From Escherichia coli (GTDB lineage: Bacteria > Pseudomonadota > Gammaproteobacteria > Enterobacterales > Enterobacteriaceae), in assembly GCF_016903815.1 (NCBI RefSeq), contig NZ_CP069973.1: a stretch of 64,000 bases of DNA; one strand, 5' to 3'. Both the position numbers and the translations under genes were made by a program. Under the pieces are notes generated by a model. The model made no database searches, was not told the DNA's origin, and saw nothing but the letters and a program-made list of their open reading frames with translations. Below are positions 30,994 through 58,293 of the stretch, piece after piece; positions within the stretch are counted from its first letter, which is position 1; each line of letters opens with the position of its first letter.

Positions 30994-31000
30994 AACTGCA

Positions 31001-31097
31001 TAAAAAAATAGAGCCTGTCGACATCCGCCAGACTCTACAGTACACACAGCAGTGCATCCTCGTCTTAAATCCGGCCTGGGGTCCTGGTGGCCGGTGA
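31001..31097 (-). ncRNA. mcaS: McaS (IsrA) small RNA
   Basis: The minus strand reads accggccaccagg...ggatgcactgctgtgtgtactgtagagtctggcggatgtcgacaggctctattttttt. It includes the GUGUGU-type motif, a TATAAC -10 just upstream and a terminal hairpin plus U-run. Confidence 0.7.
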
Positions 31098-54151: not shown

Positions 54152-54925
54152 TTAGAACTGTTCATTGCCATCGAGGTTAGGTAGCATAATTTTTTCAATC
54201 AAGGCGAGAGCCTTTTTGTCCCGGTCAGCGAAGTATTTCGGGGCATATTGCGGCAACCAAATATTGTTAAAATGTTCTTTGAAATCTGCTAAATATTCAT
54301 TTGGGTACAGCCTTGCAGGGTATACGCGACCATCGGGATATTCATGGTCATAGGTAGGGAATGTTTTGGGTTCTACGTTTCTATTATCTCTTAACCATTG
54401 TGAAAATACTCTTCCTTGTGAAATGTCAGGAACCATTTTTTCTGGGAGTGTGTACCCTGCTTGTTCAAGAGGTGCAACCAAGTTGAATGTCAGTTCATTA
54501 AGAATAGAAAAGTGCGTGTGAGGAATTCTACTACGATTAACCATGTACCGTTTTAAATGTACAGGCATTTCTGCTGTAGTTCTTTCCCCTGACATCCATT
54601 CACGAACCCATCTTGAAACCTGGACTGCAAATTTGGGCGATAGCCACTGCGCTAGATTAATAGCGATGTCAGGATGCACCCATGTCCCTTGGTTTTCAGG
54701 TCTTCCACCTTTAAATGATTGAATTAACTCCGATATGGGAATTCCCATATCGCGTGATAATTCGTCAAAAAACTCTTGAGTAGTTTTGAGTCTAGTGTAA
54801 TCAGAGAGCAGTTTGCCCGCAGTTCTACACATTGATGTGGCGTTTATGTAACCATCTTTGGCACGTAAATGTATTATTTCGCCGTCAATTTCACGAGAAA
54901 TCAAAGATAATTGAAAGGATGTCAT
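54152..54925 (-). CDS. KilA-N domain protein (antirepressor-like)
   Basis: N-terminal KilA-N/APSES-type region (EIDGEIIHLRAKDGYINATSMCRTAGK), 257 aa. Confidence 0.7.
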   Translation of the reverse strand: MTSFQLSLISREIDGEIIHLRAKDGYINATSMCRTAGKLLSDYTRLKTTQEFFDELSRDMGIPISELIQSFKGGRPENQGTWVHPDIAINLAQWLSPKFAVQVSRWVREWMSGERTTAEMPVHLKRYMVNRSRIPHTHFSILNELTFNLVAPLEQAGYTLPEKMVPDISQGRVFSQWLRDNRNVEPKTFPTYDHEYPDGRVYPARLYPNEYLADFKEHFNNIWLPQYAPKYFADRDKKALALIEKIMLPNLDGNEQF

Positions 54926-55391
54926 TGAAAATTCCTCAAGTTGGAGAGTTCTGGAACATTAAGGCGAGGTGGCAGTAATGCACCATCTGTAATCTTTTGA
55001 TACTGACGTAATCGGGCCTGATGTGCAACGCCTTGCAAGTATGTAACTCATTGAAAACGATCATTTTTATCTATTGACATCAAATGGCAAACTGTCATTG
55101 TGCGGCTATGGCAAGTGGCAAATGCTTATAAATCATATGGATATAAATAGTACAGAAAGAGTTGTTTTCTCTAGGATATGAGTATACGCCCAATGCTGAT
55201 TGGTTGAATTTTGTTCTTGTTTTAAAGGGTAAGAGTTTAAAGTGTTGGCAGTGATGTATTGGATAGTTAGAATTGCTGTGGGTGCTTGAGGCTATCTGCC
55301 TCGGGCATGAACACCAAAGGTAGATAGAGAAAAGCCCCAGTTAACATTACGCGTCCTGCAAGACGTTTAACATTAATCTGAGGCCATATCT

Positions 55392-55579
55392 ATGCGACAC
55401 ATAGAGATTAGCCTCTTACGGACCGAAAGGTCAAGGAGAAGCAGGCTATGAAGCAGCAAAAGGCGATGTTAATCGCCCTGATCGTCATCTGTTTAACCGT
55501 CATAGTGACGGCACTGGTAACGAGGAAAGACCTCTGCGAGGTACGAATCCGAACTGGCAGACGGAGGCTCTGATTCGTA
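55392..55579 (+). pseudogene. hok/mok-like type I toxin locus with a divergent, truncated Hok C-terminus
   Basis: Hok ATG at 55448 gives MKQQKAMLIALIVICLTVIVTALVTRKDLCEVRIRTG-RRRL-stop (43 aa). The first 38 aa look HokD/HokC-like. The conserved QTEVAVFTAYE tail is missing. A 19-codon mok-like ORF (55392..55451) ends in a TGA overlapping the hok ATG. Confidence 0.6.
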
Positions 55580-55655
55580 GACTACTAATCTGAGTAAAAG
55601 ACCCAGCGGGGAAAGAACCACGCCGGGACTAGTTAATAAGATATTTATAGCGTGG

Positions 55656-55997
55656 CTATTCTTTTTTTGCGGTATAGACTTTTTCGCCTGAGAAGTCTGG
55701 AGCTACCCAAAAGTTAATATTAAACTGAGCATCATCGCTTAGTTCAACACGGTGCCAGTATTGTGGTGGGCTTGTTGCAAAAGCGCCAGCATTAATGACT
55801 ACTTTTATCTCCGGTTCAGTAGCATTCTCATCAGCAAAACCATAATATGTTACAGTACCTTCCATCACGCATAACTGTCCAAAAACACCTGCTGCTGTAT
55901 TATGATGTGTTAATAACGCTGAAGGTACGTTCTCTTTTGTGAAGAACGGAGTTGAGCGTTTGATTACCCAGTCTTTAGGAATTCTCTTGTGTGTCAT
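55656..55997 (-). CDS. YeaR-like DUF1971 cupin protein (tellurite-resistance TehB-associated domain)
   Basis: GGGAGG RBS before ATG(MTHKRIPKD). The pattern RSTPFF..H.T..GV.G.L.VM.G.V.Y.G.ADE..EP...V.I.AG.FA..PP..WH..E...D..FNI.F.VAP matches the yeaR family. Confidence 0.65.
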   Translation of the reverse strand: MTHKRIPKDWVIKRSTPFFTKENVPSALLTHHNTAAGVFGQLCVMEGTVTYYGFADENATEPEIKVVINAGAFATSPPQYWHRVELSDDAQFNINFWVAPDFSGEKVYTAKKE

Positions 55998-56864
55998 AAC
56001 CACCTCCCATAAAACATGCATTATAAATGCACCTTTTTGAGGGTTATGTCAAGCTGTTATGAAACACATAATTGATATGTTGATTAGAGGAGAAGATAGA
56101 ATCAATATGGTTGTTTTTCGTATAACTATTTGTTTTACTTTTAGTTTGTGCATTCTGTGTGTTAGGAATAACTTATTAAAGTTTAACTAAAAAATCTCGA
56201 TATAGTCCGCATAGATTACTGTTACTGAATCTTATTGTGTGCATTAGTTGTGTTCTGAAATTTCAATTTAATTACTTATGATATATTTTTAACGATAAAT
56301 GTTTTCCGGGTTAAAGACAGTGGGGGATGAGATAAGCAATATATCATTAATCTTGATTATTTCCAGGATGCCTTTACTGTGCATATAAATAAATCATATA
56401 CGCATCAAATAATGTAAAGGCATCCTTTTAGATATATCTTATCAAATGTTAATGATTTGAGTGGGAAACATGATTCCAGAAACTAATCATGCGGCTACTT
56501 TATAAAAATAATGCCCATATAAAACAGCCAGCGAAAAGGATTACGGATAAAAAAGGAGCGAGATGTGCATAGTTGTTATTTTCCATGTTTAACCACCTTA
56601 AATAATTGATGATGACGGGATGTGCATCTGTAATGCTTTTGTTGAAATGTTATGATAAAAAAGAACTTTTTCATAACATTAAAATGTAATTTATCTAATC
56701 GTTTTTAATAATAAGTGTTGTATTTCTATCCTTGTATCAGCTATTTGATATGTAGTGTTTGTTCATGTTATGTGGAGCTTTACACCATAGCCAGTTTATT
56801 TATACTTTATTCGTCAGCCTGAACAACTGGCATCTGCTGCACTGCGCCATCGAGAGATTGAGAA

Positions 56865-57464
56865 ATGGCGCATATACAACTGGTCAAACAAACCTCTTCT
56901 GGACTACTTCTCCCGGCGACGCCGGAGAGTTGCGATTTTTTGCATCAAATCAAAATAGGCGAGTGGATACACGCAGACTTTAAGCGTGTGCGTAACTACG
57001 CATTCCACAAGCGTTTTTTCAAACTCCTGCAACTGGGATTCGATTACTGGACTCCGGTCGGTGGGGCGATCACGCCTCGCGAACGAAAGCTGGTTTCAGG
57101 ATTCGTTGATTACCTATGTGAATCAGTAGGCCGGGAACATACGCCAGCTCTGAGCGAAGCCGCAGAGCAATATCTGAATACAGTTGCGACACGCAGAACC
57201 CGGGATACGGCATTGCTAAAGTCGTTTGAGGCTTTCCGCGAGTGGGTAACCATTCAGGCCGGATTTTACACCGAGCATCTTTATCCTGATGGTAGCCATG
57301 GGCGTCGGGCGAAATCCATCGCTTTTGCGAATATGGACGAAACCGAGTTTCAGCAGGTTTATAAATCTGTTCTGAATGTGCTGTGGAACTGGATTCTGTT
57401 CCGTAAATTTTCCTCTCCGGAACAAGTCGAAAATGTGACCGCGCAGCTGCTGGAGTTTGCGTAA
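56865..57464 (+). CDS. Lambdoid nin-region protein (DUF1367/YbcN-like), hypothetical
   Basis: 199 aa, translationally coupled (TAATG) to the YbcO-like gene. Confidence 0.55.
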   Translation: MAHIQLVKQTSSGLLLPATPESCDFLHQIKIGEWIHADFKRVRNYAFHKRFFKLLQLGFDYWTPVGGAITPRERKLVSGFVDYLCESVGREHTPALSEAAEQYLNTVATRRTRDTALLKSFEAFREWVTIQAGFYTEHLYPDGSHGRRAKSIAFANMDETEFQQVYKSVLNVLWNWILFRKFSSPEQVENVTAQLLEFA

Positions 57465-57754
57465 TGGTGGATTTACGTAAAGCGGCGCGGGGGCAGATGT
57501 GCACCGTCAGAATTCCTGGCTACTGCAATCACGATCCGGAAACGTCTGTGCTGGCGCATTACCGACTGGCGGGAACGTGCGGAACAGCGACAAAACCACA
57601 CGATATGCAGGCGGCGATTGCCTGTAGCTCATGCCACGATCTAATCGACGGGCGGGTAAAAACCAGCGATTACACCAAAGAAGAATTACGCCTGATGCAT
57701 GCAGAAGGTGTTTTTCGCACACAAGAAATCTGGAGAAAGGAGGGATATTTGTGA
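57464..57754 (+). CDS. YbcO-like DUF1364 protein (putative Zn-binding nuclease)
   Basis: MVDLRKAARGQMCTVRIPGYCN...IACSSCHD resembles the DLP12 YbcO pattern. Confidence 0.7.
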   Translation: MVDLRKAARGQMCTVRIPGYCNHDPETSVLAHYRLAGTCGTATKPHDMQAAIACSSCHDLIDGRVKTSDYTKEELRLMHAEGVFRTQEIWRKEGYL

Positions 57755-58293
57755 TTTACCCAACGAATACAGGAAAAAGCGGAGAACACCTTCGTCTCGC
57801 CACGCTGGAAAGTGTCTGGATTCAGGGCAAACTGCGTATGTGGGGGCGCTGGTCGTATATTGGCGGTGGCAGGTCAGGAAATATGTTCAATCAGTTGTTG
57901 GCATCCAAAAAATTGACGAAAACAGCCATCAATGAAGCCCTGCGCAGAATGAAAAAAGCGGGAATAGAGAAAGCTGAGCTGGAAGCGTTTTTGCGAGAGA
58001 TGATCAACGGCAAGCAAAAGAGCTGGCTGGCGCATTGTACTGATGCAGAGGCGTTATGTATTGATCGAGTCATAAGTGAGGTGCTGGCAGAGCATCCTGG
58101 ATTGATTAGTGTCCTCCGGCAACGGTATGAAGGACGGGGGATGACTAAGCGCAAAATGGCTGAATTGCTAAATGATGCACATCCTGAGTGGTGTTTTAGC
58201 ACATGCGAAAAGCGAATTGCTAATTGGTTGGCTGTTGCTGAGTATGCCCTATATATTCCCATGCGAGAATCATTTGCTCAAAAAATAGCTTGA
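57751..58293 (+). CDS. Putative late-gene antiterminator Q-like protein
   Basis: GGAGGG RBS then a GTG overlapping the upstream stop (GTGA). It is the last gene before the terminator and the lysis cassette. The family assignment rests on position and weak motif memory. Confidence 0.5.
   Translation: MIYPTNTGKSGEHLRLATLESVWIQGKLRMWGRWSYIGGGRSGNMFNQLLASKKLTKTAINEALRRMKKAGIEKAELEAFLREMINGKQKSWLAHCTDAEALCIDRVISEVLAEHPGLISVLRQRYEGRGMTKRKMAELLNDAHPEWCFSTCEKRIANWLAVAEYALYIPMRESFAQKIA

What the first reader, a model, noticed from the sequence alone, without database searches (positions are those of the whole stretch)
55250..55640. hok/mok-like type I toxin locus in the prophage with a truncated, non-canonical Hok C-terminus
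The 43-codon ORF at 55448 encodes a HokD/HokC-like first 38 residues, covering the TM helix and the RKDLCEVRIRTG segment. It then diverges and stops (…TG-RRRL). It lacks the conserved QTEVAVFTAYE periplasmic tail. Restoring one nucleotide gives QTEALIRRLLI, still non-canonical. A mok-like leader ORF ends in a TGA overlapping the hok ATG. This may be a decaying type I toxin-antitoxin relic or a variant Hok with an altered C-terminus. It is below the ORF-track size cutoff.
Basis: partly seen in the sequence, partly recalled or inferred. Interest (0 to 1): 0.5.

Follow-up and report, generated by a model that had tools for sequence, protein, structure and literature searches.

The report
Decayed hok/sok toxin locus in prophage
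This is an ordinary, already catalogued remnant of a well-known phage-borne toxin-antitoxin module (hok/sok) whose toxin gene and RNA control elements at the 3' end have been wrecked, so it is most likely a dead relic, not a new kind of toxin.

Summary
Window 55448-55573 (+) encodes a 41-aa peptide (not 43 codons) identical to HokD for 37 residues, then RRRL-stop. The hok promoter, mRNA leader (Rfam sok/hok leader, 101.5 bits), 19-codon mok ORF and antisense Sok gene are all intact.

It is not a sequencing error. The same DNA is found in about 103-109 of 5,426 complete E. coli genomes, 3 deposited Rac-like phages and IMG/VR contigs. RefSeq already names the product "Hok/Gef family protein" (WP_001445775.1).

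Sister prophages with the same KilA-N left flank carry an intact 51-aa hokD with all 3' elements. The window matches them at 96-100% up to codon 37. The next ~65 nt are only 57-74% identical to any intact hok:
- three 1-nt deletions;
- three in-frame stops;
- a destroyed GC-rich 3' stem-loop.

Homology then ends at a junction with a DUF1971 gene, so the fbi element and the terminator are missing.

Published R1 hok and HokB mutagenesis indicates each lesion class alone abolishes toxicity.

Verdict: a decaying hokD/hokW-type type I toxin-antitoxin relic, of a known kind and low interest. A residual Sok function or a toxic short peptide is not excluded, but nothing supports either.

The parts
55245..55273 (+). 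hok promoter: -35 TTGGCA, 17-nt spacer, -10 TAGAAT. Transcription start is inferred near 55280.
   Evidence: Consensus scan gives 10/12 matches. One such site is expected by chance in this region, so the call rests on position and on 100% identity with the same stretch upstream of intact hokD in PSS-15 and HNSQ2209.
55280..55450 (+). hok mRNA leader. It contains tac (GGGTGCTTGAGGC, 55280-55292), the Sok-target stem-loop, the mok SD and ORF, and the hok SD.
   Evidence: Rfam RF01794 scores 101.5 bits (gathering 59), with the full model 1-157 matched on the + strand. The stretch 55268-55447 is 96% identical to the leader of intact PSS-15 hokD.
55392..55451 (+). mok-like leader ORF of 19 codons. 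SD is GAGG at 55380-55383. Its TGA overlaps the hok ATG (ATGA).
   Evidence: Translation. The start maps onto the annotated mokW start of phage 933W. Intact S4, WCHEC and PSS-15 loci have the same short out-of-frame form.
55330..55398 (-). Sok antisense RNA gene, with boundaries transferred from the annotated sokW of phage 933W.
   Evidence: Coordinate mapping. The minus-strand RNA folds into a long hairpin followed by CUUUUCU (-28.7 kcal/mol, z=-4.2). The PSS-15 counterpart gives -32.2 kcal/mol; the private C>T at 55366 costs one G-C pair in the Sok hairpin.
55405..55434 (-). Inferred sok promoter: -35 TTGACC at 55434-55429 and -10 TAATCT at 55410-55405.
   Evidence: Read from the sequence, by position relative to the mapped Sok 5' end and, from my own recollection, the R1 sok promoter layout. 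It is identical to the intact PSS-15 locus. The consensus scan did not flag it because the -10 is weak. This part is inferred.
55448..55573 (+). Truncated hok ORF of 41 aa. Residues 1-37 match HokD (TM helix plus RKDLCEVRIRTG), followed by RRRL*.
   Evidence: RefSeq annotates it as WP_001445775.1, 'Hok/Gef family protein'. The exact sequence was seen on at least 1000 contigs.
55559..55573 (+). Scrambled 15-nt stretch that replaces the 18 nt encoding QTEVAV. It has three 1-nt deletions and two substitutions relative to hokW, and it creates the TGA.
   Evidence: Pairwise alignment to 933W hokW; multiple alignments A1-A3.
55574..55597 (+). Residual hokW-type tail codons, back in frame: TTC GTA GAC TAC, then TAA (formerly GAA), TCT GAG, and TAA (the original stop after a 3-nt deletion). 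The UACG TadA-editing motif is changed to UACU.
   Evidence: The editing site and Cys46 role come from PMC12214031.
55605..55624 (+). Degenerate remnant of the GC-rich 3' stem-loop that caps processed hok mRNA.
   Evidence: The window folds at -8.1 kcal/mol with z=0.0. Intact loci fold at -21.1 to -21.6 kcal/mol with z of about -3, forming a 9-bp stem kept by compensatory changes (A2).
55625..55661 (.). Junction sequence of unknown origin. It sits where fbi (CCTCAACGCACCCGC) and the rho-independent terminator lie in intact loci.
   Evidence: BLAST homology to hok ends at 55611 (MAFFT extends it to about 55624). DUF1971-module homology starts at 55662. There is no fbi-like partner for tac and no terminator-like site in 55100-55800.
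55656..56021 (-). Convergent DUF1971 (TehB-like) moron gene. It is the recombination partner at the 3' breakpoint and is not part of the toxin-antitoxin module.
   Evidence: Pfam PF09313, 91.5 bits. RefSeq annotates the CDS as 55656-55997. In other prophages the same gene occurs without hok.

Best explanation
This is a hokD/hokW-type hok/mok/sok type I toxin-antitoxin module in the early-right (nin-like) region of a full-length Rac-like lambdoid prophage. Its 5' two-thirds are intact: the hok promoter, tac, the Sok target, the mok ORF, the sok gene and hok codons 1-37. Its 3' third has decayed.

The toxin ORF is cut to 41 aa and lacks the periplasmic C-terminal domain. The 3' stem-loop that stabilises processed hok mRNA is destroyed. 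The fbi element and the terminator were lost at a recombination junction with a DUF1971 moron.

Inferred consequences:
- hok transcripts are still made, but they cannot form the inert, stable tac/fbi-locked pool.
- They lack 3' protection against exonucleases.
- If translated, they give only a membrane anchor without the toxic or disulfide-forming tail.
- The locus can therefore no longer kill, mediate post-segregational killing, or abort phage infection.

Sok may still be transcribed, but with no cognate toxin to control.

The sharp step in identity, together with the hokW-type signature in the tail, suggests a mosaic. An intact hokD-type 5' part appears to be joined, by homologous recombination or gene conversion among prophage hok copies, to an older and already degenerate hokW-type 3' remnant next to DUF1971.

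Shown: the anatomy, the lesions, the absence of fbi, stem and terminator, the existence of intact sister loci, and the distribution. Inferred: loss of toxicity, the fate of the RNA, and the recombinational history.
For: Family identity:
- Pfam HOK_GEF scores 59.1 bits. Rfam RF01794 scores 101.5 bits.
- The locus is collinear with the annotated mokW/hokW/sokW of phage 933W.

Intact sisters in the same context:
- PSS-15, MB07081, HNSQ2209 and A30 encode a 51-aa HokD with fbi and terminator. The first three have the identical KilA-N protein WP_000200358.1 on their left; A30 shares the left-flank DNA (93% identity) but has no KilA-N gene annotated there.

Step in identity:
- Left flank 100%, leader 96%, and codons 1-37 97% identical to PSS-15.
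- 55559-55611 is only 57-74% identical to any intact hok, while intact loci are at least 82% identical to each other over that stretch.

Lesions:
- Three in-frame stops.
- Three 1-nt deletions, a 3-nt deletion and GAA>TAA.
- 3' stem at -8.1 kcal/mol (z=0) against about -21 kcal/mol (z of about -3) in intact loci.
- Best tac-downstream duplex is -23.9 kcal/mol, matched or beaten by 33% of random tiles. Intact loci give -32.5 to -38.4, reached by no more than about 2% of tiles.
- No terminator-like site.

Single origin and no sign of constraint:
- The junction occurs in 103 genomes, all at least 99% identical.
- One IMG/VR contig has a further 93-nt deletion that removes mok, the hok start and the sok promoter.

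Literature:
- In R1 hok, 18 of 20 possible premature stops, Y48N, stop-codon loss and a C-terminal FLAG tag all abolish toxicity. 19 of 22 3'-UTR suppressors break the terminal stem and eliminate processed mRNA (PMC9841398).
- The periplasmic C-terminus was proposed as the toxic domain (PMC8509063 citing Poulsen 1991).
- Cys46, RNA-edited from Tyr in HokC/D/E, is required for edited-HokB toxicity (PMC12214031).
- Intact HokD is toxic and a truncated R1 Hok is not (bioRxiv 10.1101/2025.08.07.668861).
Against: - No experiment on this 41-aa peptide exists. Other type I toxins of 19-35 aa kill with only a TM helix (my own knowledge), and the TM helix plus Cys15 and Cys30 are intact here.
- The HokC study argues that toxicity also depends on the N-terminal TM region. 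Single alanine substitutions in the R1 tail do not abolish toxicity.
- The 5' regulatory half is essentially unmutated, which could mean residual selection, for example on Sok.
- PGAP annotates the ORF as a normal protein, not a pseudogene.
- All carriers are nearly identical, so selection cannot be measured in either direction.
Confidence: 0.85

Rival explanations
1. Antitoxin-only remnant under selection. The toxin is dead, but the locus persists because Sok (55330-55398, minus strand) still neutralises hok mRNAs of the same leader class from other prophages, plasmids or superinfecting phages in the cell. That would make it an anti-addiction or cross-immunity function.
For: - The sok promoter and the Sok sequence are nearly identical to those of intact loci, while the toxin 3' end is heavily damaged.
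- Carrier genomes hold 2-5 places matching the hok query. About 80% of complete E. coli genomes carry at least one intact hokD-type tail, with up to 8 copies, so potential targets exist.
Against: - The intact 5' part is equally explained by recent recombination with an intact copy.
- The private C>T at 55366 weakens the Sok hairpin (-32.2 to -28.7 kcal/mol).
- One contig has deleted the sok promoter.
- There is no sequence diversity among carriers with which to test constraint.
- Sok expression and cross-reactivity were not tested.
Confidence: 0.1
2. Functional short Hok variant. The 41-aa peptide (TM helix plus RKDLCEVRIRTGRRRL) is still membrane-active and acts as a toxin or a persistence factor with a new basic C-terminus.
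For: - The ORF, its SD, the mok coupling and the promoter are all intact.
- It passes the Pfam gathering threshold.
- The allele is common: about 2% of complete E. coli genomes and at least 1000 contigs.
- The TM region contributes to HokC toxicity.
Against: - R1 nonsense mutants and C-terminal changes are loss-of-function.
- The Tyr/Cys46 position needed for the disulfide is missing.
- Two further in-frame stops and a decayed 3' UTR show that nothing downstream is maintained.
- Loss of the mRNA-stabilising stem predicts little transcript.
- The allele has a single origin.
Confidence: 0.05
3. Sequencing or assembly artefact: the true sequence encodes a canonical 51-aa Hok.
For: None beyond the general fact that single-base indels are common errors.
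Against: - Identical sequence occurs in 101-109 independently assembled complete genomes, 3 phage genomes and 6 further IMG/VR contigs.
- The difference from intact hok is not one base. It is about 10 substitutions, 8 deleted bases and a different 3' flank.
Confidence: 0

Closest known systems
hokD (relF) of E. coli, including intact prophage-borne hokD loci (e.g. strains PSS-15, S4, WCHEC96200)
   Same: HokD residues 1-37 are identical. The promoter, leader, 19-codon mok ending at ATGA, and the Sok region are 96-100% identical to PSS-15. The neighbouring KilA-N gene is the same.
   Different: Intact loci encode 51 aa ending QTEVAVFTAYEPEE. They have the 9-bp GC stem after the stop, the fbi sequence CCTCAACGCACCCGC and a terminator. 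The window has none of these. K-12 hokD is the mirror image: its toxin and 3' end are intact, while its 5' regulatory region is replaced by relBE.
hokW/mokW/sokW of Stx2 phage 933W (and VT2-Sakai)
   Same: It is a prophage-borne hok module at the equivalent early-right position. The window's tail remnant carries the hokW-type signature TTCGTAGACTAC...TCTGAG. The match is 91.8% identical over 55268-55611.
   Different: mokW is an in-frame 70-codon extension of hokW, whereas the window's mok is short and out of frame. hokW is a full 51 aa with the stem, fbi and terminator.
hok/sok of plasmid R1 (the paradigm)
   Same: The architecture is the same: a tac 5' end, mok-coupled translation, and an antisense Sok overlapping the mok start (PMC9841398).
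   Different: R1 depends on tac/fbi locking and on 3' processing down to a stem-capped mRNA. Both elements are absent here, and the toxin is truncated.
Inactivated chromosomal hok loci of E. coli K-12 (hokA, hokC, hokE by IS elements; hokD by rearrangement; Pedersen & Gerdes 1999, as cited in PMC12214031)
   Same: It is the same phenomenon: chromosomal or prophage hok copies disabled by rearrangement or mutation while parts of the module persist.
   Different: The mode of inactivation differs. Here it is clustered small deletions and nonsense codons plus replacement of the 3' flank, not an IS insertion or loss of the 5' region.

Membership tests
Hok/Gef toxin family (Pfam PF01848) | N-terminal transmembrane helix and conserved core (…C..T……L.TR..LCE…) scoring above the family threshold | tested here: met
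   59.1 bits against a cutoff of 22, E=3.2e-16, profile positions 1-34. Residues 1-37 are identical to HokD.
Hok/Gef toxin family (Pfam PF01848) | Complete periplasmic C-terminal domain (…G..EVA.F..YE…), including the Tyr/Cys46 position | tested here: not met
   Profile positions 35-42 are unmatched. The frame reads RRRL*FVDY*SE*. NCBIfam Hok models score below their cutoffs, though they do so for intact HokD too.
Hok/Gef toxin family (Pfam PF01848) | Membrane-depolarising toxicity on expression | not testable with these tools
   Only literature on other Hok proteins is available.
hok/mok/sok type I toxin-antitoxin locus | hok mRNA leader with a Sok-complementary region and an antisense Sok gene | tested here: met
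   Rfam RF01794 scores 101.5 bits over the full model length. The model matches the sense (hok mRNA) strand. Sok maps from the sokW annotation to 55330-55398 on the minus strand and folds with z=-4.2.
hok/mok/sok type I toxin-antitoxin locus | mok leader ORF with its own SD, translated up to the hok start | tested here: met
   19-codon ORF at 55392-55451 with an ATGA overlap. Intact loci have the same form. [quoted passage not shown]
hok/mok/sok type I toxin-antitoxin locus | Long-range tac (5' end) / fbi (3' end) pairing that locks the full-length mRNA | tested here: not met
   tac is present, but the best downstream partner gives -23.9 kcal/mol, a chance-level value (33% of tiles). Intact loci give -32.5 to -38.4. 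There is no gapless complement with 3 or fewer mismatches nearby.
hok/mok/sok type I toxin-antitoxin locus | GC-rich terminal stem-loop of the processed mRNA, and a rho-independent terminator | tested here: not met
   Stem remnant folds at -8.1 kcal/mol, z=0.0, against about -21 kcal/mol and z of about -3 in intact loci. No terminator-like site in 55100-55800. The terminator GCTTCGGCGGGTTTTTT of intact loci is absent.
hok/mok/sok type I toxin-antitoxin locus | Post-segregational killing, rifampicin activation or phage exclusion phenotype | not testable with these tools
   This needs an experiment.

The most novel reading that the evidence does not exclude
The toxin-dead locus is kept as an orphan Sok 'anti-hok' immunity element. 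It would let this Rac-like phage or its host neutralise hokD-type addiction or abortive-infection modules of competing prophages and plasmids. Alternatively, and less likely, the 41-aa basic-tailed peptide is a new mild membrane effector.
Probability: 0.1. Interest if true: 0.45.

Novelty: already known. Interest (0 to 1): 0.12.

Why it matters
It matters little for biology. hok/sok modules are known to be enriched in E. coli prophages, and degenerate chromosomal copies have been described since 1999.

The practical value is for annotation. RefSeq lists the 41-aa product (WP_001445775.1, about 2% of complete E. coli genomes) as an ordinary Hok/Gef protein. The evidence here says it should be treated as a pseudogene or relic when toxin-antitoxin or defence repertoires are counted. 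At 41 aa it also passes the first 40-aa 'degenerate' filter of a recent Hok census, though a further filter in that pipeline may still remove it.

The locus also gives a natural example of three lesion classes stacked together that R1 mutagenesis identified as loss-of-function: a premature stop, loss of the 3' stem, and loss of fbi. It further illustrates mosaic recombination among prophage hok copies.

Tried and rejected
1. Sequencing error. Rejected: the sequence is identical in more than 100 complete genomes.

2. An alternative fbi downstream. A gapless search with up to 3 mismatches and a gapped duplex search of ATG+110 to +400 found only a -23.9 kcal/mol site at 55685. That value is at chance level.

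3. The 3' segment comes from another intact hok paralogue. A 'distant' BLAST of 55540-55760 against all complete E. coli genomes and their plasmids gave at most 88% identity over 55 nt and at most 83% over 72 nt. No intact source was found.

4. Intermediate alleles carrying only some of the lesions. None were found. Every junction-bearing genome is at least 99% identical. Every lower-identity carrier of the left flank that was inspected (4 of 8) has a fully intact hokD.

5. The 37-aa 'HokD, partial' entries in the protein cluster as an independent Q38* nonsense allele. A 62-nt query with CAG>TAG found no 100% match in any complete genome. Those entries are probably contig-end fragments.

6. 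A 23-nt lesion signature scanned against one representative genome per species gave 0 hits. The allele is therefore not a species-level feature anywhere.

7. A search of the Hok census preprint's held supplements for RIRTGRRRL gave no hit. The supplements of PMC9841398 are not held, so the exact positions of the R1 nonsense suppressors could not be read.

8. The promoter and terminator scan gives no statistical support by itself: 1 promoter found against 1.2 expected.

9. The metagenome collection was not scanned.

Full report
**What is in the sequence**

Window 55448-55573 (+) is an ATG-initiated ORF of 41 sense codons plus TGA. Its product is MKQQKAMLIALIVICLTVIVTALVTRKDLCEVRIRTGRRRL. The first 37 residues are identical to E. 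coli HokD. The peptide passes the Pfam HOK_GEF threshold (59.1 bits against 22) but covers only profile positions 1-34 of 42.

The regulatory elements upstream are all present:
- A sigma-70-like promoter, TTGGCA-17-TAGAAT, at 55245-55273.
- A full-length match to Rfam RF01794, 'sok', at 55280-55450 (101.5 bits, E=3e-23). The match is on the hok-sense strand and ends at the hok AUG, so the model in fact describes the hok mRNA leader that contains the Sok target.
- A 19-codon mok-like ORF at 55392-55451, whose TGA overlaps the hok ATG.

Mapping from the annotated sokW, mokW and hokW of phage 933W places Sok at about 55330-55398 on the minus strand. It places the original hok stop codon at 55595-55597. 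The Sok strand folds into a long terminator-like hairpin (-28.7 kcal/mol, z=-4.2).

The one-base 'repair' product QTEALIRRLLI was reproduced.

**It is real and already catalogued**

- The 461-nt locus is 100% identical in about 101-109 of 5,426 complete E. coli genomes.
- The junction with the downstream gene is present in 103 genomes, all at least 99% identical.
- RefSeq annotates the ORF as WP_001445775.1, 'Hok/Gef family protein', and does not mark it as a pseudogene.
- The exact protein was seen on at least 1000 contigs.
- Three deposited phage genomes (vB_EcoS-666R9, -673R7, -613R10) are identical across 55200-55760. Seven IMG/VR contigs carry the 23-nt lesion signature; over 55200-55700 four are identical to the window, one begins within the locus, and two differ as described below.

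A sequencing error is excluded.

**Context**

The element is a complete Rac-like lambdoid prophage with int, ralR/RalA, recET, kil, sieB, repressor and cro, replication genes, Q, lysis genes, a trkG moron, terminase and coat. The hok module lies between a KilA-N gene (54152-54925, minus strand) and a convergent DUF1971 gene (55656-56021, minus strand).

**Comparison with intact relatives**

The left flank (55060-55275) occurs in 117 genomes. Eight of these match at lower identity, and I inspected four of them: PSS-15, MB07081, HNSQ2209 and A30. All four encode an intact 51-aa HokD. The first three have the identical KilA-N protein on their left; in A30 no KilA-N gene is annotated in that stretch.

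Alignment A3 and per-segment counts compare the window with PSS-15:

| Segment | Identity to PSS-15 |
|---|---|
| Left flank | 100% |
| -10 box and leader | 96% |
| hok codons 1-37 | 97% |
| 55559-55611 | 57% |

Against every intact hok examined, 55559-55611 is only 57-74% identical. Intact loci are 82-100% identical to one another over the same stretch.

Relative to hokW, this 3' part carries the following lesions:
- Three separate 1-nt deletions and two substitutions within 55559-55573. The net change is -3, so the frame is restored, but a TGA is created.
- GAA changed to TAA at 55586-88.
- A 3-nt deletion just before the original stop codon.
- A 2-nt deletion plus substitutions that destroy the 9-bp GC-rich stem after the stop. 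The window folds at -8.1 kcal/mol (z=0). Intact loci fold at about -21 kcal/mol (z of about -3), and their stem is maintained by compensatory changes.

In the hok frame the sequence now reads ...RTGRRRL*FVDY*SE*.

Recognisable hok homology ends at 55611-55624. Homology to DUF1971 modules of other prophages, which have no hok, begins at 55662. Intact loci continue from that point with fbi (CCTCAACGCACCCGC) and a terminator (GCTTCGGCGGGTTTTTT). The window has neither:
- The best duplex between tac and anything in the next 290 nt is -23.9 kcal/mol, a value reached by 33% of random tiles from the window.
- Intact loci give -32.5 to -38.4 kcal/mol, reached by no more than about 2% of tiles.
- No terminator-like site is found in 55100-55800.

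**History (inferred)**

The leader is of the hokD (PSS-15/S4) type. The tail remnant carries the hokW-type signature (TTCGTAGACTAC...TCTGAG) plus many private lesions. A sharp identity step of this kind fits a mosaic better than uniform decay. An intact 5' part appears joined to an older degenerate 3' remnant that travels with the DUF1971 moron.

Such recombination does occur here. IMG/VR contig L017 has the same decayed 3' end and DUF1971 gene, but an S4-type left flank and 5' leader, with a breakpoint between 55321 and 55366. Another contig, L019, has a further 93-nt deletion (55371-55463) that removes mok, the hok start and the sok promoter. That is what continuing decay would look like.

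No intermediate allele with only some of the lesions was found.

**Mechanism**

The hok/sok cycle is established from R1 (summarised in PMC9841398):
- The full-length hok mRNA is locked by tac/fbi pairing and is inert.
- Slow 3' trimming to a stem-capped form triggers tac/ucb refolding.
- mok is then translated, and hok translation is coupled to it.
- Sok binds the refolded form and RNase III destroys the duplex.

Published mutagenesis bears on each lesion class seen here:
- **Premature stops and C-terminal changes.** In R1, 18 of 20 possible premature stops abolish toxicity. So do Y48N, stop-codon loss and a C-terminal FLAG tag.
- **The 3' stem.** In R1, 19 of 22 3'-UTR suppressors break the terminal stem and eliminate the processed mRNA.
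- **The periplasmic tail.** It was proposed as the toxic domain of Gef (PMC8509063 citing Poulsen 1991).
- **Cys46.** This residue is DNA-encoded in HokA and HokB and created by TadA editing of a UACG Tyr codon in HokC, HokD and HokE. It is required for edited-HokB toxicity (PMC12214031). In the window that codon lies beyond the stop, and its motif is mutated to UACU.
- **HokD itself.** Intact HokD is toxic on induction, and a truncated R1 Hok is not (bioRxiv 10.1101/2025.08.07.668861).

I therefore infer, with about 85% confidence, that the locus is a non-toxic relic. Transcripts would be unstable and never locked. The peptide would be a bare membrane anchor. Post-segregational killing or abortive-infection functions would be lost.

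Sok may still be made. Its hairpin is slightly weakened by a private C>T at 55366.

**Rivals**

- **An orphan Sok kept for cross-immunity** is possible. Many genomes carry several hokD-type copies. No evidence supports it, and the near-identity of all carriers leaves no power to test for constraint.
- **A functional short toxin** is unlikely, for the reasons given above.
- **An artefact** is excluded.

**Comparison with what is known, and verdict**

The locus is a member of the hok/sok family by descent, closest to hokD in its 5' part and to hokW in its tail. It fails three defining features of a working module: the complete toxin C-terminus, tac/fbi pairing, and the 3' stem with terminator.

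Degenerate chromosomal hok loci are a known phenomenon (Pedersen & Gerdes 1999, as cited). Enrichment of hok in prophages is documented. The finding is correct but ordinary.

Novelty: already known. Interest: about 0.12. The main practical point is that the RefSeq protein WP_001445775.1 is probably a pseudogene product.

Noticed in passing
L013 and L010 versus L012 and L011 (alignment A3 columns ~141-200; window 55339-55385): Intact hokD loci sharing the window's left flank fall into two leader/Sok classes. In HNSQ2209 and A30 the ~45-nt Sok stem-loop region is replaced by an unrelated hairpin 20 nt shorter. The hok coding sequence stays at least 97% identical. This may be a swap of antitoxin specificity on an otherwise constant toxin.
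   Followed up: no
L019 (IMG/VR UViG_3300007747_000074), equivalent to window 55371-55463: This contig has the same decayed allele plus a 93-nt deletion that removes the mok ORF, the hok SD and ATG, and the sok promoter. This is further decay of the relic in one contig.
   Followed up: partly
L017 (IMG/VR UViG_2718218453_000005), equivalent to window 55268-58000: This contig carries the decayed hok 3' end and the DUF1971 gene, but behind a different (S4-type) left flank and 5' leader. The recombination breakpoint lies between window 55321 and 55366.
   Followed up: partly
window ~41000-64000; L022 (phage vB_EcoS-666R9, ON470614.1): The prophage is a full-length Rac-type phage with int, ralR, recET, racC, kil, sieB, replication genes, Q, lysis genes, trkG as an internal moron, ParB-like, terminase and a P22-like coat. 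K-12 Rac is a truncated version of it. Three ~38-kb phage records from the UK are identical across the hok locus.
   Followed up: partly
window 43166-43344 (+): RalA antitoxin sRNA of the ralR/RalA type I toxin-antitoxin system (Rfam RF02694, 225 bits). This is a second type I module in the same prophage.
   Followed up: no
window 38739-38856 (+) and 31000-31095 (-): Chromosomal sRNA genes frnS (RF01796, 134.8 bits) and McaS/IsrA (RF00115, 114.5 bits) lie upstream of the prophage.
   Followed up: no
window 55583-55588: TACGAA holds the UACG motif edited by TadA to give Cys in HokC, HokD and HokE. In the window it reads TACTAA, so a single G>T both destroys the editing motif and creates a second in-frame stop.
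   Followed up: partly
window 55598-55630 (- strand): On the minus strand the degenerate hok 3' region can form a 7-bp hairpin (CCCGGCG...CGCUGGG) followed by UCUUUUACU. It might serve as a weak terminator for the convergent DUF1971 gene. The G>A at 55598 lengthens the U-run. The terminator scan did not flag it.
   Followed up: no
protein cluster (P0003-P0006): Many 28-37-aa 'HokD, partial' entries end at or before Gly37, on hundreds of contigs. No Q38 TAG allele exists in complete genomes. The entries are probably contig-end fragments, arising where assemblies break at the point at which multicopy hok sequences diverge.
   Followed up: partly
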